Source: Candidatus Jordarchaeia archaeon
GTDB lineage: Archaea > Asgardarchaeota > Jordiarchaeia > Jordiarchaeales > Jordiarchaeaceae
Reading direction: 5' to 3'
Length of the DNA stretch: 21,831 nucleotides
Assembly: GCA_018383815.1 (NCBI GenBank)
Contig: JAHAWU010000050.1
Location: forward strand, 1-21,831
The notes below the pieces were generated by a model. The model was not told the origin of the DNA. It made no database searches and was given only the letters and a program-made list of their open reading frames with translations. A program made the translations under genes and the position numbers. Of this stretch, positions 2,615-21,486 are shown piece after piece. Position 1 is the stretch's first letter; each line of letters begins with the position of its first letter.

Positions 2615-5446
2615 ATGGACTGGAACCAAATTGAAAAAAAATGGCAACAAAGATGGAAACAGGCCAAAATATTCCAAGCAGACCCCCCACCAAAAAATAA
2701 AAGAAAAGCTAAACATTCAAAAGGAAAACTATTTACATTCCCCTACGCATATATGAACGGACCGTTACATATAGGTCATGCCTTAACCTGTTTGCGTGTG
2801 GATATTTACGCTCGTTTTAAGCGTATGCAGGGTTATAATGTGTTGTTCCCGTTTGCTTTTCATTATACGGGGGAGCCCCTAGTGGGTGTAGCTAAGCGTA
2901 TTGCGGAGGGTGATCAGAAGCAGATTGAAATTTTGGTTAGGAGTGGTGTGCCACGAGAAGAGATTAGCAAATTTACGGATCCTAAATATATTGGTGATTA
3001 TTATCGGGCTGAGGCTATCGAAACGGTGGATCGGATTGGTTTTAGTGTTGATTGGCGGCGTCAGTTTACTACTGTTGATCCTCCTTATAATAAGTTTATT
3101 GAGTGGCAGTATTGGACTTTGCGTGATAAGGGTTATGTGGTTTTGGGTAGTCATCCGGTGGTTTGGTGTCCTCGTTGTTTGTCGCCTACTGGTGATCATG
3201 ATCGCTTGGTGGGTGAGGGTGTTTCTCCCATTGAGTATACTTTGTTGAAGTTTGAGTGTGATGGTGCTTTTCTTATGGCTGCTACTTTGCGTCCGGAGAC
3301 TGTTTTTGGTGTTACGAATATGTGGTTGAATCCGGATGCGGTTTATGTTCGGGCGCGTGTTGATGGTGAGGTGTGGATTGTTAGTAGGGAGGCTGTTCAG
3401 AAGCTTAGGGATCAGTTGCATGTGGTTGAGGTTTTGGAGGAGTTTGAAGGGCGTAGGCTTATTGGTAAGTTTTGCAGGAATGTGGTGGTGGGTAGTGAGG
3501 TTCCCATTTTGCCTGCTTCTTTTGTTGATCCGGGTAATGCTTCAGGTGTGGTTATGAGTGTTCCGAGTCATGCTCCTTTTGACTGGGCAGCTATTGCTGA
3601 TTTGCGTAGGAATCCTGAGGTTCTTAGGGAGTACGGTATTGATCCAAGTATTGTTATGGGGTTGGAGCCCATTTCTTTGATTGAGACTGAGGGGTTTGGT
3701 GAGCATCCCGCCGTAGATCTTGTTGAGGCGGCGGGTATTAAGAGTCAGAAGGATAAGCGGTTGGAGGATATCACTAAGGAGGTTTATCGGAGGGAGTTTC
3801 ATAAGGGTATTCTCAAAAAGGTCACTGGTAGATATGCGGGGCGGGGTGTTGCCGAAGTTAAGAAGGAGTTAATTGCAGATTTTGTGAGTGAGGGTAAGGC
3901 GAGTAGTTTGTGGGAGACTGCGGAGCCTGTGGTTTGCCGTTGTAATACGCGTACTATTGTGAAGATTTTGGAGAATCAGTGGTTTTTGAAGTATAGTGAT
4001 CCGGAGTGGAAGGCGCGGGTTAGAGAGCTTTTGGAGCGTATGATAATTGTTCCGGATGAGGCTAGGAGTGCTTTTGAGTATACTGTGGATTGGTTGGAGG
4101 ATAAGGCTTGTGTGCGGCGGAGTGGCTTGGGTACTAGGCTTCCTTGGGATCCAGATTGGATTGTGGAGACTTTGTCGGATTCTACGGTTTATATGGCTTT
4201 TTACACTGTTGCTAAGCACATTTATGGTTTGGGGATTCCGGCGGAGAAGTTGACTCGTGAAGTTTTTGATTATATTTTTTTGGGTAAAGGAAATGTGGAG
4301 GAGGTTGCTGGGAGGAGTGGTTTGGATGAAGAGTTGTTAGAGGATATGAGGGATGAGTTTGAGTACTGGTATCCTGTCTCTCTTAGGAATTCGGCTAAGG
4401 AGTTGATTTTTAATCACTTGACGTTTTTCTTGTTCCAGCATGTGGCTATTTGGCCGGAGGATAAGTGGCCGCGGATGGTGGGGGCCAACGGTATGATTCA
4501 GATTGAGGGGCAGAAGATGAGTAAGTCGCGGGGAATTTTTATTACTCTTAAGGAGGCTTTGGACCAATATAATGCTGATCCTACTCGTTTTGAGTTGGCG
4601 TATTCGGCTGAGGGATTGGTGGATCCGGATTGGCGGGCTCAGGAGGTTGTGAGTCTCCGTAGACGGTTGGAGTTGCTTTATGATTTTGCTACCAATCTAC
4701 CTGAGACTAAGCCTTTGGATAGGGATATTGATCCCTGGCTTTTGAGTAGGGTTCATAGGCATATTAAGGCGGCTACTGAGTATTATGAGGTTATGAGGAA
4801 TCGCTCTGCTCTTCAGGAGGGATTTTTCGACCTGTGGAATGATATCCGCTGGTATATGAGGCGTACTGAGGAATATTCAGATGTTTTAAGGAAGGCTGTG
4901 GAGACCATGATTCTTCTGGTGTCTCCTGTGACTCCTCATATTTGTGAGGAGATTTGGGAAAGAATTGGCCACAAGAGGTTCATTGTTCAGGAGCCTTGGC
5001 CGACTTATGATGAGAAGTATTTTGATGAGGAGTTGGAGCTTCGGGAGAAACTCATAAGCGACACCATTGAGGATATAAAGGAGATTCTCAAGGTTACCAG
5101 AATTGAGAAGCCTTCCAAGATTACTCTTTTTGTGGCTCAGAGTTGGAAGTACAAGATTTTAGCGGAGTCCTTAAAGAATAGGGAGGATTTGATAAAGAGA
5201 GTTATGGCTGATGCGGAGGTTAAGAAGCAGGGAAAAGATGCTGTGAACTATGCGCAAAAGTTGCTCAAGAATCCTCGCCATGAGATGCTTACTCAGGAAA
5301 TAGAATTTCAGACTTTATCTGAGGCGGCAGAGTTCTTGGCTAAGGAATTTGGAGCTAAAGTTGAGGTTCTGAGGGCTGAGGAGTCGAAACATGAGAAGGC
5401 CAGGATGGCTGAACCATTAAAACCAGGAGTTCTCATCGAAACCTAA
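2615..5446 (+). CDS. leuS: Leucine--tRNA ligase (archaeal/eukaryal type)
   Basis: 943 aa. It has the HIGH motif (PLHIGH), the KMSKS motif (QKMSKSRG), a CP1 editing-domain region and an archaeal-style C-terminal extension. All other ORFs listed between 2879 and 4567 are nested artefacts. Confidence 0.97.
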   Translation: MDWNQIEKKWQQRWKQAKIFQADPPPKNKRKAKHSKGKLFTFPYAYMNGPLHIGHALTCLRVDIYARFKRMQGYNVLFPFAFHYTGEPLVGVAKRIAEGDQKQIEILVRSGVPREEISKFTDPKYIGDYYRAEAIETVDRIGFSVDWRRQFTTVDPPYNKFIEWQYWTLRDKGYVVLGSHPVVWCPRCLSPTGDHDRLVGEGVSPIEYTLLKFECDGAFLMAATLRPETVFGVTNMWLNPDAVYVRARVDGEVWIVSREAVQKLRDQLHVVEVLEEFEGRRLIGKFCRNVVVGSEVPILPASFVDPGNASGVVMSVPSHAPFDWAAIADLRRNPEVLREYGIDPSIVMGLEPISLIETEGFGEHPAVDLVEAAGIKSQKDKRLEDITKEVYRREFHKGILKKVTGRYAGRGVAEVKKELIADFVSEGKASSLWETAEPVVCRCNTRTIVKILENQWFLKYSDPEWKARVRELLERMIIVPDEARSAFEYTVDWLEDKACVRRSGLGTRLPWDPDWIVETLSDSTVYMAFYTVAKHIYGLGIPAEKLTREVFDYIFLGKGNVEEVAGRSGLDEELLEDMRDEFEYWYPVSLRNSAKELIFNHLTFFLFQHVAIWPEDKWPRMVGANGMIQIEGQKMSKSRGIFITLKEALDQYNADPTRFELAYSAEGLVDPDWRAQEVVSLRRRLELLYDFATNLPETKPLDRDIDPWLLSRVHRHIKAATEYYEVMRNRSALQEGFFDLWNDIRWYMRRTEEYSDVLRKAVETMILLVSPVTPHICEEIWERIGHKRFIVQEPWPTYDEKYFDEELELREKLISDTIEDIKEILKVTRIEKPSKITLFVAQSWKYKILAESLKNREDLIKRVMADAEVKKQGKDAVNYAQKLLKNPRHEMLTQEIEFQTLSEAAEFLAKEFGAKVEVLRAEESKHEKARMAEPLKPGVLIET

Positions 5447-7749: not shown

Positions 7750-9528
7750 TTAAGAGAGCAGGTTTAATATGGTCAGAGCGTAAATTTTAGCTGCCTTAAT
7801 TAAACTGTCTATGGACACACTCTCGTTTGCGGCGTGGGCCTCTTTAGGATCCCCTGGTCCAAAAACAGCGGTGGGAATACCGTGAGAAATACAGTGCTTC
7901 GCCACTGTTGCGCCCCCTATCCCAATTAGCTTAGGCTGGCTTCCCGTCACTTCCCTTATTACACTCACCAGCGCTCTAACAACGGGGTCTTCGGGAGAAA
8001 CTTCCGTCGGGGGATCCGAAGCTATGGGCTCTATGGCCACCTCTAGTCCAGGGTTCTCCCTCTGGACGCTCCTCACCAATTCGCGTAACTCGTTGATTAT
8101 CTGCCTCAAATCCTGGGAGGGTAGATATCTAATATCCACTGTGGCCTCGGCGGAAGCAGGAATCACGTTCGTAGCCACTCCGCCCTTTATTGTTCCTACA
8201 TTTATGGTTGGAGCTCCAAGCAAAGGATGTTCGGTGTAGGACATTTTTAGGTTTTCTATGCGGGCCAAAACCTTTGAGAGGTTTACAATTGCATTCGCGC
8301 CCTTCACCGGCATACTACCGTGACCCTGTGCACCAGTACTCTTCAGCCTGGCCCATAAACGGCCCTTTTCCGCAATCTCCACCGCTTCACACTTAGTTTG
8401 CTCAGCCACGAGAGCATAATCAGCTGTTAAGCCCTTTTCGTTCAAAAGATACTTTATGCCCAGCTCATTTCCAGTTTCCTCATCTGCCACGGCCACAAAC
8501 AACAAGCGTCCCCGAATGGGGAAATTAAACTCCTTAAGCGCCTGAATAGCCAGAAGAACAGAAGCCATAGGCCCCTTATCATCAACAACACCCCTACCCA
8601 CAATCCTACCATTAGTAGGAGTAGCTTTAAATGGATCATAAATCCATCCGTCACCCGCAGGCACCACATCCAGATGGGTAATAATCATTAAAGTGGGAGA
8701 GTTACCCTTCTCCACATAGCCTACAACGTTGGTCCGCCCACTCTCCTTCTCGTAAGATTCAGTTTGCATTCCAATCCTATACAGCTCGCCCTGAACAACA
8801 TCCGCAGCAACCTTCTCATTTCCCGGAGGATTAACAGAGCGGGCGGAAATTAGATCTTCAAGCAAATTTAGGAGATAGTCCCTTCGACTGTCAATAAACT
8901 GCAGAATCTTACTCTTAACGTCTGGAAACACTACACCCTTTACCGTAGGTAACTTTTCTTCGATACCCAACAAGCGCCTTGAAACACTTTGAAAAGCCAA
9001 ATTAACCTTGTCACCAGTTTTAGCACTAGTCTCAATGTAAGGCGCGCCCAAGCTTCTGGCAAGCATCTCCGCCTCTTGCCTAGAAACAACACGGTTGCTG
9101 GCCAAATCATTCTTATTACCGATCAAAACAATCGGTACATCACCACAAACGCTACGCAACTCTTTATACCATGTTGTAACATTCTGAAAAGATTTAGTAT
9201 CTGTTAAGTCAAAAACAATCACAGCCCCCTTAGCTCCAGCATAGAAAAACGATCTCAAGTGACTGAAGGAGGGCTGACCTCCAAGATCCCAAATCTGTAA
9301 GGTCACAATTTTATCCTCAATATTTATGGTGTGAGCAGCAAACGAAGTTCCTAAAGTCATTTTGTAGTCTTCTGAGAACCTATTCTCGGTTAGCCTTACT
9401 ATTAGGCTGGTCTTGCCTACACCACCATCCCCAATGCAAACAACTTTAAACGCATATTCTTCATGCTTGGGTACCATATCCACTCTGCCCCTATTGCAAC
9501 TTTTGCTATTTTTCTCCTTTTTCCTCAT
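7750..9528 (-). CDS. Fusion protein: N-terminal Rab/Ras-like small GTPase and C-terminal M20 family metallopeptidase (ArgE/DapE/ACY1/CPG2 type)
   Basis: GTPase module, about aa 26-187: G1 GDGGVGKTS, G3 WDLGGQ, G4 GNKND, G5 ETSAK. M20 module, from about aa 205: SVNPPGNEK..TLMIITHLDVVPAGDGW..VVDDKGP..AVADEETGN..HGSMP..GGATVAKH. It is one uninterrupted frame. The true start may be the ATG at 9477 (MVPKHEEY). Confidence 0.85.
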   Translation of the reverse strand: MRKKEKNSKSCNRGRVDMVPKHEEYAFKVVCIGDGGVGKTSLIVRLTENRFSEDYKMTLGTSFAAHTINIEDKIVTLQIWDLGGQPSFSHLRSFFYAGAKGAVIVFDLTDTKSFQNVTTWYKELRSVCGDVPIVLIGNKNDLASNRVVSRQEAEMLARSLGAPYIETSAKTGDKVNLAFQSVSRRLLGIEEKLPTVKGVVFPDVKSKILQFIDSRRDYLLNLLEDLISARSVNPPGNEKVAADVVQGELYRIGMQTESYEKESGRTNVVGYVEKGNSPTLMIITHLDVVPAGDGWIYDPFKATPTNGRIVGRGVVDDKGPMASVLLAIQALKEFNFPIRGRLLFVAVADEETGNELGIKYLLNEKGLTADYALVAEQTKCEAVEIAEKGRLWARLKSTGAQGHGSMPVKGANAIVNLSKVLARIENLKMSYTEHPLLGAPTINVGTIKGGVATNVIPASAEATVDIRYLPSQDLRQIINELRELVRSVQRENPGLEVAIEPIASDPPTEVSPEDPVVRALVSVIREVTGSQPKLIGIGGATVAKHCISHGIPTAVFGPGDPKEAHAANESVSIDSLIKAAKIYALTILNLLS

Positions 9529-20818: not shown

Positions 20819-20944
20819 AGCACTCAACCCAGCCAGCCTCAAAGCTCCAAAAACAAAATATTAAGCCTTTAAGTACCAAGCCAAACTAAAATTCCTTTTG
20901 TGCAGTTCCACATAGAAGATTCACGGAGTTTAAAAATTAGAATT

Positions 20945-21154
20945 GGTGGGGACGGTGAGATTTCCATAGAGAAACATTGTTTCTCCACTTTGAACTCACG
21001 ACTAGCAAGTCTCTCTGGCTCACTGCTCCAGAAGTTCATCATCTTCTGGTCAGCTCAGCCAATATTCACAGCCTCTGGAGCCTGCCGTGCTGCCTAGTCG
21101 CGTTCAAAACCACAAACATGTTTTGAACAACACTGACTACACTACGTCCCCACC
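20945..21154 (-). ncRNA. Structured RNA candidate of unassigned class (210 nt); strand tentative
   Basis: A perfect 10-bp terminal helix (ggtggggacg at 20945-54 with cgtccccacc at 21145-54) encloses three stem domains. The first is 20955-59/20995-99 with an inner 7-bp hairpin 20969-75/20979-85. The second is 21000-05/21094-99 with an inner 7-bp hairpin 21028-34/21043-49. The third is a 9-bp hairpin 21102-10/21120-28. In the minus orientation the central hairpin loop reads AUGAUGAA and a T5 run follows the 3' end (20932-36). The only overlapping ORF (20900-21097) looks spurious. Confidence 0.45.
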
Positions 21155-21270
21155 TAAATGGGAAACGGTAAACTATTTGGAGCGTGTAGAAAATTATACA
21201 CAAGAGTTACATAAAGTTTTTGTTTCCATTTCTCTCAAGCCACAATAAGGGAACATAGATAGGGAATGCC

Positions 21271-21291
21271 ATAAAAATTAAAAAAGCAAAG
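21271..21291 (-). terminator. Oligo-T terminator downstream of the permuted 5S gene
   Basis: The minus strand reads CUUUGCUUUUUUAAUUUUUAU and begins about 10 nt after the last paired nucleotide of the 5S terminal helix. Confidence 0.45.
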
Positions 21292-21300
21292 AGAGGAAGT

Positions 21301-21450
21301 GGCGTCGCTGTTCCGTGTTCGGGATGAGAACGGGTAGTTCACTATACACTATGACCGGCACCGAGATGCCAGTATTCGGTTTTCCCGGTCCCTCGCGGAG
21401 AGCAGTACTCACCGAATCGTGTATAGATTTGACTTTCACGCAACGACGCC
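21301..21450 (-). rRNA. 5S ribosomal RNA gene with circularly permuted domain order, closed by a 10-bp terminal helix
   Basis: The minus-strand RNA carries CUCAUCCCGAACACGGAA (loop C), CAUAG (loop A) and GAGUACUG..CGCGAG..GGGAAA (loop E / helix IV). Helices I (UGCCGGU/ACUGGCA), II (GUGUAUAG/CUAUACAC) and V (AUUCGGU/ACCGAAU) all pair. The order is 3' half (21440-21367), UCUCGG linker (21366-21361), then 5' half (21360-21311). The whole is flanked by GGCGUCGUUG (21450-41) and CAGCGACGCC (21310-01). Confidence 0.75.
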
Positions 21451-21470
21451 AAAAACCCACACGCAGTGCC

Positions 21471-21486
21471 GAAATATAAATATTTC
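21471..21486 (-). promoter_or_regulatory. TATA box / BRE-like promoter for the permuted 5S transcription unit
   Basis: The minus strand reads AGAAATATTTATATTTC. The TTTATATT core is centred about 27 nt upstream of the first G of the terminal helix (21450), which is the canonical archaeal TATA-to-start distance. Confidence 0.45.

What the first reader, a model, noticed from the sequence alone, without database searches (positions are those of the whole stretch)
21301..21450. Genomically circularly permuted 5S rRNA gene
Read on the minus strand (21450 to 21301) the RNA is GGCGUCGUUG-CGUGAAAGUCAAAU-CUAUACAC-G-AUUCGGU-GAGUACUGCUCUCCGCGAGGGACCGGGAAA-ACCGAAU-ACUGGCA-UCUCGG-UGCCGGU-CAUA-GUGUAUAG-UGAACUACCCGUUCUCAUCCCGAACACGGAA-CAGCGACGCC.

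Every hallmark of 5S rRNA is present and helices I, II and V pair perfectly or with one G-U. The order, however, is permuted. The 3' ~74 nt of a normal 5S come first. Helix I is capped by a 6-nt linker exactly where the natural 5' and 3' ends should be. The 5' ~50 nt come last.

The new ends fall at the conserved AA bulge of helix III (canonical GGAA|GUGAAAG) and are extended by a 10-bp helix. 74 + 50 = 124 nt, a normal archaeal 5S length. A TATA-like box about 27 nt upstream and T-runs directly downstream make this a self-contained unit, not a window cut through a tandem array.

Two outcomes seem possible. The mature 5S may be a permuted molecule with an extra stem protruding from helix III. 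Alternatively, the precursor may be circularised through the terminal helix, as with permuted tRNA genes and circular archaeal pre-rRNA intermediates, and then reopened in the UCUCGG linker. To my knowledge permuted 5S genes have been reported only in some organelle genomes, not in archaeal chromosomes.
Basis: partly seen in the sequence, partly recalled or inferred. Interest (0 to 1): 0.9.

Follow-up and report, generated by a model that had tools for sequence, protein, structure and literature searches.

The report
Permuted 5S rRNA gene in Asgard archaea
This Asgard archaeon encodes its 5S ribosomal RNA with the two halves swapped and flanked by a tRNA-intron-type splice signal, so the RNA is probably cut out and joined into a circle to restore the normal 5S, and the same arrangement in many Asgard lineages would explain why 5S genes go undetected there.

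Summary
Window 21301-21450 (-) holds every part of an archaeal 5S rRNA in circularly permuted order, with its own TATA box and T-run terminator.

Rfam finds only a 25-nt fragment in the native sequence. A covariance model built only from computationally un-permuted copies matches a real haloarchaeal 5S end to end (89 bits).

The arrangement is not an artefact or a pseudogene. I found it in 25 loci from independent assemblies: Frey/Jord-, Njord-, Hel-, Heimdall- and Hodarchaeal. All 5S helices and the terminal helix covary. The gene is 100% identical to a relative (L004) whose surrounding DNA is about 92% identical.

The terminal helix is the outer arm of a bulge-helix-bulge (BHB) motif, the substrate of the archaeal tRNA-splicing endonuclease. 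Cutting by the tRNA-intron rule and ligating gives ...CACGGA-AGUCAAAU..., the canonical 5S loop-B sequence. This holds in every lineage, although the BHB sits in three different registers.

Helix I is capped by short loops, often hyperstable tetraloops (UUCG, UACG, GCAA), so the mature RNA is most likely a 123-nt circle. Cleavage, ligation and circularity are inferred, not shown.

The closest precedent is the permuted SRP RNA of Thermoproteus. No report of a permuted or circular archaeal 5S was found.

The parts
21474..21481 (-). Archaeal TATA-like box ATTTATAT, 30 nt upstream of the terminal helix.
   Evidence: Sequence. Distances. The same box at the same distance occurs in L004, L006, L005 and L015.
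21441..21451 (-). Leader strand of the outer (terminal) helix, UGGCGUCGUUG. Predicted to be discarded after cleavage.
   Evidence: It pairs with 21300-21310. Covariation across 14 distinct versions: 8.57 of 9 cognate pairs against 4.48 of 9 non-cognate.
21437..21440 (-). BHB central helix, leader strand CGUG. It pairs with CACG at 21314-21317.
   Evidence: 4 of 4 pairs. The BHB conformer lies only 0.2 kcal/mol above the MFE.
21434..21436 (-). 5' three-nucleotide bulge AAA. Predicted endonuclease cut between 21435 and 21434.
   Evidence: BHB geometry. The cut rule (after the second bulge base) follows the canonical tRNA 37/38 intron geometry, which is established knowledge.
21312..21434 (-). 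Predicted excised and ligated 5S rRNA, 123 nt, probably a circle. The junction joins A21312 to A21434.
   Evidence: The product junction CACGGA^AGUCAAAU is the canonical 5S loop B. The circular fold gives the 5S three-way junction. This stretch is 100% identical in L004 and L006.
21367..21434 (-). The 3' two-thirds of 5S, encoded first: loop B 3' side, helix II 3' strand, helix V, loop E, helix IV, loop D and helix I 3' strand.
   Evidence: R1 hit at 21367-21474, 54.2 bits. Colinear blastn match to the Haladaptatus 5S.
21361..21366 (-). Cap joining the natural 3' and 5' ends of 5S: UCUCGG, that is a CUCG tetraloop closed by U-G.
   Evidence: Caps in relatives: UUCG, UACG, GCAA, CACG, GUUA, UUUG, UAUUG.
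21312..21360 (-). The 5' part of 5S, encoded last: helix I 5' strand, loop A, helix II 5' strand, helix III and loop C.
   Evidence: Rfam RF00001 positions 27-51 at 21311-21335. R1 hit at 21224-21360.
21314..21317 (-). BHB central helix, trailer-side strand CACG. The same bases form the 3' strand of helix III in mature 5S.
   Evidence: A compensatory change in this helix is seen in L028 (CUGG/CCAG) against L011 (CCGG/CCGG).
21311..21313 (-). 3' three-nucleotide bulge GAA. Predicted cut between 21312 and 21311.
21300..21310 (-). Trailer strand of the outer helix, CAGCGACGCCA. Predicted to be discarded.
21273..21285 (-). T6 and T5 runs, an archaeal-type terminator.

Best explanation
This is the functional 5S rRNA gene of a Freyarchaeota-like Asgard archaeon, encoded in circularly permuted order.

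Anatomy. A short transcript starts a few nucleotides before 21451 and ends at the T-runs. It carries the 3' two-thirds of 5S first, then a short cap that closes helix I, then the 5' third.

Proposed maturation:
1. The leader and trailer pair into an 11-bp helix, which continues into a bulge-helix-bulge motif: AAA bulge, CGUG/CACG helix, GAA bulge.
2. The archaeal tRNA-splicing endonuclease (EndA) cuts after the second base of each bulge.
3. The RtcB ligase joins A21312 to A21434.
4. This removes the leader and trailer, frees CACG to re-form helix III, and restores the canonical loop-B sequence CACGGAAGUCAAAU.

The product is a 123-nt covalently closed 5S rRNA whose helix I ends in a tetraloop. 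This circle is most likely the form built into the ribosome.

Shown here: the permuted anatomy, its conservation and covariation, the BHB geometry, and the fact that the predicted product is a canonical 5S.
Inferred: cleavage by EndA, ligation by RtcB, circularity of the mature RNA, and that this is the only 5S gene in the genome.
For: 1. It is a real 5S.
- Un-permuted sequences from 10 distinct lineages fit the canonical 5S structure. 88.4% of cells are paired against 70.4% in shuffles and 32-47% with slid partners. 23 pairs carry double changes.
- Model R1, built from those sequences alone, matches the Haladaptatus 5S (Rfam 95.9 bits) end to end at 89 bits, E 1.4e-19, with no gap at the junction. 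It also matches a Priestia 5S at 46.8 bits.
- blastn of the un-permuted window sequence runs colinearly across the junction.

2. It is conserved and widespread.
- 25 loci from independent assemblies carry it, including chromosome-scale Heimdallarchaeota records CP070695.1, CP070760.1 and CP070665.1.
- None of them gives an RF00001 hit at the gathering score.
- The precursor is 100% and 99.3% identical to L004 and L006, while the longer matches containing it are 92.3% and 96.5% identical.

3. The BHB motif.
- Every locus has an outer helix of 5-16 bp, a 4-nt central helix and two 3-nt bulges.
- Among the 14 distinct versions compared, the central helix has 4 of 4 pairs in 8 and 3 of 4 in 6. Random expectation is 0.011 and 0.113.
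- The central helix sits in three registers (CACG, ACGG, CGGC). The predicted product is nevertheless always CGG(A/C)AG(U/C)(U/C)AAG, except in L019/L020, where a ~32-nt insertion follows the junction.
- L028 shows a compensatory C-G to U-A change in the central helix, coupled to helix III.
- Outer helix: 8.57 of 9 cognate pairs against 4.48 of 9 non-cognate.
- The BHB conformer is the MFE or within 0.2 kcal/mol in the window, L006, L007, L013 and L019.

4. The machinery is in use next door. A tRNA-Trp gene with three introns lies 150 nt downstream.

5. The caps. Among about 13 distinct helix-I caps, 5 are textbook c(UUCG)g, c(UACG)g or c(GCAA)g loops, and the type changes within clades.

6. 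Precedent. The permuted SRP RNA of Thermoproteus is processed at a BHB by the splicing endonuclease, and its termini are ligated into functional circles (PMC4731332). Circular 23S rRNA has been reported inside archaeal ribosomes (PMC12918454).
Against: - No RNA data: neither cleavage, ligation nor circularity has been observed.
- The central helix uses bases that also form helix III, so the BHB competes with the mature fold. In Njord-, some Jord- and some Heimdall-type copies it has only 3 of 4 pairs and lies 3-6 kcal/mol above the MFE.
- In clades where the leader reads CCGGAAG, its similarity to the 3' end (CGGAA) could be a remnant of duplication rather than a selected pairing.
- I could not scan whole genomes, so a canonical 5S elsewhere in this organism is not excluded.
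- One Jordarchaeum MAG was reported to contain a 5S gene (PMC9723677).
- Published archaeal 5S maturation routes do not involve BHB cleavage (PMC10515664; PMC12918454).
Confidence: 0.66

Rival explanations
1. Circular intermediate, linear product. The precursor is cut at the BHB and ligated as above. The circle is then re-opened in the helix-I cap by an unknown nuclease, giving a conventional linear 5S. This would parallel permuted tRNA genes and circular pre-16S rRNA.
For: - Helix I with its cap (8 bp plus 4 nt in the window) would leave near-canonical ends if cut in the loop.
- Permuted tRNA transcripts are circularised and then cleaved to recover the standard form (PMC10085705).
Against: - The caps share no sequence or length (3-6 nt; helix I 7-12 bp).
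- They are enriched for compact hyperstable tetraloops (UUCG three times, UACG, GCAA), which are typical permanent helix caps.
- No enzyme is known that would recognise such a site.
- Functional circles have precedent in the Thermoproteus SRP RNA and in circular 23S rRNA.
Confidence: 0.2
2. Linear permuted mature RNA. There is no cleavage or ligation. The 150-nt transcript itself is the 5S, with its ends in loop B and the terminal helix protruding as an extra arm. This is the reader's first outcome, analogous to the permuted mitochondrial 5S of brown algae.
For: - The MFE fold of the window precursor keeps helix III and the terminal helix without a BHB.
- In brown algae the permuted 5S is also permuted in the final product (PMC4267664).
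- A covarying closing helix is equally expected for a structural arm.
Against: - It does not explain why a 4-nt leader segment complementary to helix III, flanked by exactly 3-nt bulges, is kept in three registers with a compensatory change.
- It does not explain why removing it always restores the exact canonical loop-B length.
- The outer helix varies from 5 to 16 bp, and some clades have further leader-trailer pairing. This is typical of processing stems.
- It would leave 6-7 extra bases and a helix in loop B. From general knowledge, untested here, loop B and helix III bind ribosomal proteins.
Confidence: 0.07
3. Nicked 5S. EndA cuts the BHB but the ends are not ligated. The mature RNA is a linear permuted 123-mer with a break in loop B, held together by helices II and III.
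For: The sequence evidence is the same as for the best explanation. Sequence alone cannot show ligation.
Against: BHB-excised RNAs in archaea are circularised by RtcB, as described for tRNA introns and the SRP RNA (PMC4731332) and for pre-rRNAs (PMC12918454). The two ends would be held adjacent.
Confidence: 0.05
4. Rearranged pseudogene or assembly artefact, with the working 5S elsewhere.
For: Whole genomes could not be scanned here. One Jordarchaeum MAG is said to have a 5S gene.
Against: - The same architecture occurs in 25 loci from unrelated studies and assemblers, including chromosome-scale records.
- There is abundant compensatory covariation.
- The gene is perfectly conserved amid diverged flanks.
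- It has its own promoter and terminator.
- Authors of closed Heimdallarchaeum genomes could not find any 5S gene (PMC8813620).
Confidence: 0.02

Closest known systems
Permuted SRP RNA gene of Thermoproteus tenax and T. uzoniensis (Plagens et al. 2015, PMC4731332)
   Same: - A universal structured RNA is encoded with its halves swapped.
- The canonical gene was 'missing' from annotation.
- The leader and trailer form a BHB, which is cut by the tRNA-splicing endonuclease.
- The termini are ligated, and the natural ends are replaced by continuous sequence.
- The circle is the functional form.
   Different: - The RNA here is 5S rRNA, a ribosome component, not SRP RNA.
- The host is Asgard, including lineages from non-thermal sediments, not a hyperthermophilic crenarchaeon.
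- It is spread over several class- or order-level lineages rather than one genus.
- Nothing here has been shown at the RNA level.
Circularly permuted tRNA genes (Cyanidioschyzon merolae; Soma et al. 2007, cited in PMC4267664 and PMC10085705)
   Same: The 3' half is encoded before the 5' half. The transcript is circularised through its ends. From my own knowledge, the junction sits where a BHB intron could sit.
   Different: In tRNAs the circle is re-opened, by RNase P and tRNase Z as I recall, to give a linear product.
Permuted mitochondrial 5S rRNA of brown algae and other stramenopiles (Valach et al. 2014, PMC4267664; Rfam mtPerm-5S)
   Same: It is a 5S rRNA whose helix I is closed into a hairpin, so the ends lie elsewhere.
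   Different: - There the ends lie at the three-way junction between domains alpha and gamma, and the RNA stays permuted in the mature product.
- Here the break is in loop B, between helices III and II, and is flanked by a BHB that predicts re-joining.
- No Rfam mtPerm-5S match was reported for the window.
Circular pre-16S/23S rRNA and circular or permuted 23S rRNA in archaea (PMC7758197; PMC12918454; bioRxiv 10.64898/2026.03.23.713588)
   Same: BHB motifs in leader-trailer stems are cut by EndA and the rRNA is circularised. Circular 23S is reported to persist in ribosomes.
   Different: Those genes are colinear with the mature rRNA, so circularisation is not needed to restore connectivity. 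5S is explicitly described as not taking this route. Here the gene order itself is permuted.

Membership tests
5S rRNA (Rfam RF00001) | Five helices around a three-way junction, supported by covariation. | tested here: met
   On un-permuted sequences (alignment A2), 38 pairs are 88.4% paired and 23 pairs carry double changes. All controls are far lower.
5S rRNA (Rfam RF00001) | Conserved loop C / helix III, loop E and loop D sequence motifs. | tested here: met
   Rfam aligns model positions 27-51 perfectly. R1 aligns GUACUG...CGCGAG...GGGAA and CCCGUUCUCAUCCCGAACACGG with Haladaptatus and Priestia 5S.
5S rRNA (Rfam RF00001) | Full-length colinear match above the family's gathering score. | tested here: not met
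   There is no RF00001 hit at gathering in the window or in any of the 21 related loci scanned. The cause is gene order. The reciprocal test with a model of the un-permuted sequences matches real 5S genes end to end. RF00001 could not be run on an edited sequence with these tools.
5S rRNA (Rfam RF00001) | Present in the large ribosomal subunit. | not testable with these tools
   Needs RNA or ribosome data.
BHB-processed permuted ncRNA genes (Thermoproteus SRP RNA type) | The 3' part of the RNA is encoded upstream of the 5' part in one transcription unit. | tested here: met
BHB-processed permuted ncRNA genes (Thermoproteus SRP RNA type) | The leader and trailer form a BHB: a central 4-bp helix flanked by 3-nt bulge(s), as defined in PMC4731332. 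| tested here: met
   In the window the outer helix has 11 bp, the central helix is CGUG/CACG (4 of 4), and the bulges are AAA and GAA. All 25 loci have at least 3 of 4 central pairs and two 3-nt bulges.
BHB-processed permuted ncRNA genes (Thermoproteus SRP RNA type) | Predicted cleavage and ligation restore the canonical RNA sequence. | tested here: met
   The junction is CGG(A/C)AG(U/C)(U/C)AAG in 23 of 25 loci, across three BHB registers; in L019/L020 a ~32-nt insertion follows the junction (UUAUAC...). There is no gap against real 5S genes.
BHB-processed permuted ncRNA genes (Thermoproteus SRP RNA type) | Cleavage by the tRNA-splicing endonuclease and junction-spanning (circular) RNA reads. 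| not testable with these tools
   No RNA data and no enzyme assay are available. Indirect support only: a three-intron tRNA-Trp next door shows the machinery is needed in this organism.
Organellar permuted 5S (mtPerm-5S) | The ends lie at the alpha/gamma domain junction, helix I is replaced by a 5' hairpin, and the RNA stays permuted in the mature product. | tested here: not met
   The break here is in loop B, between helices III and II. A BHB predicts re-joining. No Rfam match to a permuted-5S model was returned.

The most novel reading that the evidence does not exclude
Across much of the Asgard archaea, including Heimdallarchaeia and Hodarchaeales, the 5S rRNA is made from a permuted gene by the tRNA-splicing machinery and sits in the ribosome as a covalently closed circle. 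These two groups are argued to be the closest relatives of eukaryotes. The permutation arose once, early in the group, with the splice junction sliding afterwards. It would be the reason 5S genes are 'missing' from Asgard genome annotations.
Probability: 0.45. Interest if true: 0.93.

Novelty: new variant of a known kind. Interest (0 to 1): 0.88.

Why it matters
- 5S rRNA is universal and its gene order was thought to be invariant outside a few organelles. A chromosomal, lineage-wide permutation would make ribosome biogenesis in these archaea depend on the tRNA-splicing endonuclease and ligase. It would also add 5S to the RNAs that may work as circles.
- It offers a concrete answer to a practical puzzle. 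Authors of closed Heimdallarchaeum genomes could not predict a 5S gene by any approach (PMC8813620). Rfam-based annotation misses every copy found here. Genome-quality standards that ask for a 5S gene therefore under-score Asgard MAGs, as I understand those standards.
- It gives a shared derived character, with a sliding junction, that could inform relationships among Heimdall-, Hod-, Njord-, Hel- and Jord/Freyarchaeia.
- It raises the question of what the archaeal ancestor of eukaryotes had.
- It is directly testable with existing metatranscriptomes, using a junction sequence that does not occur in the window DNA.

Tried and rejected
I replaced it with the reciprocal test: a model built from un-permuted sequences, searched against verified 5S genes, plus blastn colinearity.
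- MAFFT alignments of the un-permuted (A1) and native-order (A3) sequences mis-register helix I and the terminal helix between clades. Column-based counts of the outer and central helices were therefore done with my own script, anchored on the BHB.
- The uS2 neighbourhood of a Lokiarchaeota MAG (L021, L022) contains no 5S of either kind. This says nothing about Lokiarchaeales.
- I looked for a C/D-box sRNA in the conserved spacer 20843-21300, following the Thermoproteus precedent. The regex found none. The conservation turned out to come from an intron-rich tRNA-Trp, whose long intron carries the C and D box motifs.
- I tried to fit a BHB to the 30-nt insertion in the L027 5S and failed (by eye, on the sequence).
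- I checked whether the chromosome-scale Heimdallarchaeota records I examined are the genomes of Wu et al. 2022. The sizes do not match: 4.94, 3.16 and 1.39 Mb against 3.32 and 3.08 Mb. The link to their 'missing 5S' remark is therefore by lineage, not by genome.
- The assembly-artefact and pseudogene readings were rejected, for the reasons given under the rival explanations.

Full report
**Observation**

The order is:
- a 10-11-bp terminal helix;
- the 3' two-thirds of an archaeal-type 5S rRNA (loop B 3' side, helix II 3' strand, helix V, loop E GAGUACUG, helix IV, loop D CGCGAG, GGGAAA, helix I 3' strand);
- a 6-nt cap;
- the 5' third (helix I 5' strand, CAUAG, helix II 5' strand, helix III and loop C, CCCGUUCUCAUCCCGAACACGG).

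Rfam finds nothing at gathering thresholds in the whole window. The permissive scan returns only RF00001 positions 27-51, at 21.7 bits. ARAGORN finds no tRNA. A TATA-like ATTTATAT lies 30 nt before the helix, and T6 and T5 runs follow it. The unit is self-contained.

**Is it a real 5S?**

I removed the predicted leader and trailer and opened the sequence in the helix-I cap. blastn of that 117-mer against the plasmid collection gave two kinds of match:
- a colinear 83-nt match (74.7% identity) on a Haladaptatus replicon;
- 30-nt matches (93% identity) in Bacillaceae that run straight across the predicted ligation point.

Rfam confirms those targets as full-length 5S genes, at 95.9 and 85.8 bits.

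Ten distinct un-permuted Asgard sequences fit the canonical 5S structure:
- 88.4% of cells are paired, against 70.4% in shuffles and 32-47% with slid partners;
- 23 of 38 pairs carry changes on both sides.

A covariance model built from these sequences alone (R1) matches the Haladaptatus 5S end to end at 89 bits, with no gap at the junction. It matches the Priestia 5S at 46.8 bits. On the native window the same model gives two adjacent, out-of-order partial hits.

**Recurrence**

I scanned for the order 'loop E/D motif before loop C motif'.
- In one genome per species, the scan found six loci. Five carry Asgard or unassigned labels (Freyarchaeota, Jordarchaeales, Njordarchaeota, Promethearchaeati, 'uncultured archaeon') and one (L005) is labelled Thermoproteota.
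- In metagenomes, it found ten more.

Two further sequence types from the metagenomes were placed by their neighbouring genes:
- One sits beside a Ras-family GTPase and a uS2 that is 80% identical to Helarchaeota.
- The other sits beside an MptE-like gene that is 81% identical to Heimdallarchaeota.

I then followed synteny and found the same two-part signature in:
- a Helarchaeota MAG;
- three chromosome-scale Heimdallarchaeota records (CP070695.1, CP070760.1, CP070665.1);
- two Hodarchaeales contigs;
- a MAG labelled Thorarchaeota.

None of these loci yields RF00001 at gathering. In total, 25 loci from unrelated assemblies share the arrangement, which excludes misassembly.

The window is 96.5% identical to the Freyarchaeota contig L006 and 92.3% identical to L004 over several kilobases. 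The 5S precursor, by contrast, is 99.3% and 100% identical to them.

**The termini form a splice signal**

In every locus the outer leader-trailer helix (5-16 bp) is followed by three elements:
- on the leader strand, four bases that can pair with the 3' strand of helix III;
- on the leader strand, a 3-nt bulge;
- on the trailer strand, a 3-nt bulge between that 4-nt segment and the outer helix.

This is the bulge-helix-bulge motif recognised by the archaeal tRNA-splicing endonuclease, as defined in PMC4731332.

In the window it reads UGGCGUCGUUG|CGUG|AAA ... CACG|GAA|CAGCGACGCCA.

I applied the geometry of the canonical tRNA 37/38 intron, which cuts after the second bulge base on each strand. 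This rule is established knowledge. It is illustrated by the tRNA-Trp gene next door, where I fitted it by eye (not a tool result). The excised RNA is then 21434-21312, and ligation gives ...CACGGA-AGUCAAAU..., the canonical 5S loop B.

The motif sits in three registers in different lineages: CACG|GAA, ACGG|AAA and CGGC|AGA. The predicted product is nevertheless always CGG(A/C)AG(U/C)(U/C)AAG, with no indel against real 5S genes. The one exception is L019/L020, where a ~32-nt insertion follows the junction directly. The product, not the precursor, is what is conserved.

Further support:
- Among the 14 distinct versions compared, the central helix has 4 of 4 pairs in 8 and 3 of 4 in the other 6. 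Random expectation is 0.011 and 0.113.
- A Hodarchaeota copy (L028) changed helix III from CCCGG/CCGG to CCUGG/CCAG, and its leader changed from CCGG to CUGG. That is a compensatory C-G to U-A change in the central helix.
- The outer helix covaries strongly: 8.57 of 9 cognate pairs against 4.48 of 9 non-cognate, with 3-6 pair types at each position.
- The BHB conformer is the MFE or within 0.2 kcal/mol in the window and in L006, L007, L013 and L019, and within 1.7-5.6 kcal/mol in the other versions tested.

**Mature form**

Helix I is closed by CUCG in the window. In relatives the caps are UACG, CACG, UUCG (three independent lineages), GCAA, GUUA, UUUG, UUUAU and UAUUG, on helices of 7-12 bp.

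Five of about thirteen distinct caps are textbook c(UNCG)g or c(GNRA)g tetraloops, which make up about 0.3% of random hexamers. The type changes even within the Njord clade. This pattern fits a permanent structural cap better than a recognition site for a re-opening nuclease.

Folded as a circle, the product adopts the 5S three-way junction. I therefore favour a covalently closed 123-nt 5S as the mature species. Re-linearisation in the cap is the main rival.

None of this has been shown at the RNA level.

**Context**

The window is ordinary chromosome. It encodes LeuRS, an archaeal-type SerRS, NikR, a Ras-family GTPase, two thioredoxin-reductase-like genes, MeaB, a corrinoid adenosyltransferase, Ogg, an L23-like protein and a SPOUT methyltransferase.

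About 150 nt downstream of the 5S, on the same strand, lies a tRNA-Trp(CCA) gene broken by three introns. They sit in the D-loop, at the canonical 37/38 position (64 nt, with C and D box motifs), and in the T-loop. ARAGORN calls the gene only after the three segments are removed. This organism therefore needs an endonuclease and ligase able to handle BHBs at non-canonical positions.

**Comparison with what is known**

- Searches of the paper library found no permuted or circular 5S in archaea.
- A 2023 survey of natural RNA permutations lists 5S rRNAs with a single citation (its ref. 12), and the only permuted-5S report my searches found is the organellar study of Valach et al. 2014 (PMC10085705).
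- Recent work says archaeal 16S and 23S 'but not 5S' are circularised (PMC12918454).
- Mapped 5S maturation in methanogens uses A/U-motif endonucleolytic cuts (PMC10515664).
- The closest precedent is the permuted, BHB-processed, circular SRP RNA of Thermoproteus (PMC4731332).
[quoted passage not shown] The permutation found here in other Heimdallarchaeota assemblies is a ready explanation. I did not test their genomes.

**Verdict**

It is a new variant of a known kind, a permuted ncRNA gene restored by the tRNA-splicing machinery. It applies to a universal rRNA and is spread across major Asgard lineages. The interest is high. The mechanism is well supported by comparative sequence evidence but remains unproven experimentally.

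Noticed in passing
window 20944-21151 (-): A tRNA-Trp(CCA) gene interrupted by three introns: about 35 nt in the D-loop, 64 nt at the canonical 37/38 site carrying C-box (AUGAUGA) and D-box (CUGA) motifs, and about 28 nt in the T-loop. ARAGORN and Rfam miss it on the native sequence. After the three segments are removed, ARAGORN calls tRNA-Trp cca. The exact intron borders were not fixed. By eye, the 37/38 intron's BHB has a 3-of-4 central helix (CUCC/AGAG), like several of the 5S BHBs.
   Followed up: partly
window 20843-21300: This spacer is 96-98% identical to L004 and L006, more conserved than the flanking coding sequences. The intron-rich tRNA-Trp above explains most of this.
   Followed up: partly
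L019 6100-6320 (+) and L020 (Helarchaeota GCA_013375455.1): The permuted 5S has an intact BHB but carries a ~32-nt insertion directly 3' of the predicted ligation junction. The insertion is partly a copy of the helix V / loop E 5' strand. The predicted circle is 153 nt.
   Followed up: no
L027 3626-3837 (+) ('Thorarchaeota' GCA_048882505.1): The permuted 5S has a 30-nt insertion inside loop C / helix III (after CAUUCCGAA). It lies in the opposite orientation relative to the conserved DRMBL-MptE neighbours. I could not fit a BHB to the insertion.
   Followed up: partly
L026 about 3593-3700 (-) (Hodarchaeales contig Ga0452216_000591): The last 37 nt of the 5S gene, including the 3' half of the BHB, are tandemly duplicated (CCGGTCTCATTCCGAACCCGGAAACAATATCCCCTGG twice). 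This could be real or an assembly artefact.
   Followed up: no
window 7750-9528 (-): A single 592-aa ORF combines an N-terminal Ras-family small GTPase domain (178.6 bits) with an M20 peptidase and its dimerisation domain. This is an unusual fusion, unless two genes have been merged by the mechanical ORF call.
   Followed up: no
L007, L013, L019 (Hel-type) and L023-L025 (Heimdall-type) flanks: Beyond the BHB outer helix there is a second leader-trailer helix further out. In the Hel type it is an 11-12-bp perfect helix, for example GGAUAGAUUUG/CAAAUCUAUCC. In L025 it is GCGCC/GGCGC (not checked in L023 and L024). The transcripts there are longer, and the TATA-like boxes lie farther upstream than in the window.
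   Followed up: partly
L005 (JAPDJY010000015.1) and protein P0001: Likely mislabelled public records. L005 is titled 'Thermoproteota archaeon', but its 5S closely resembles (by eye; the same sequence type as L015) that of the Jordarchaeales locus L003. The uS2 of L007 is 100% identical to a protein named 'Candidatus Deferrimicrobium sp.', although its relatives are Helarchaeota.
   Followed up: no
window about 21496, compared with L004 and L010: L004 and L010 carry a ~60-nt insertion relative to the window just upstream of the 5S promoter region.
   Followed up: no
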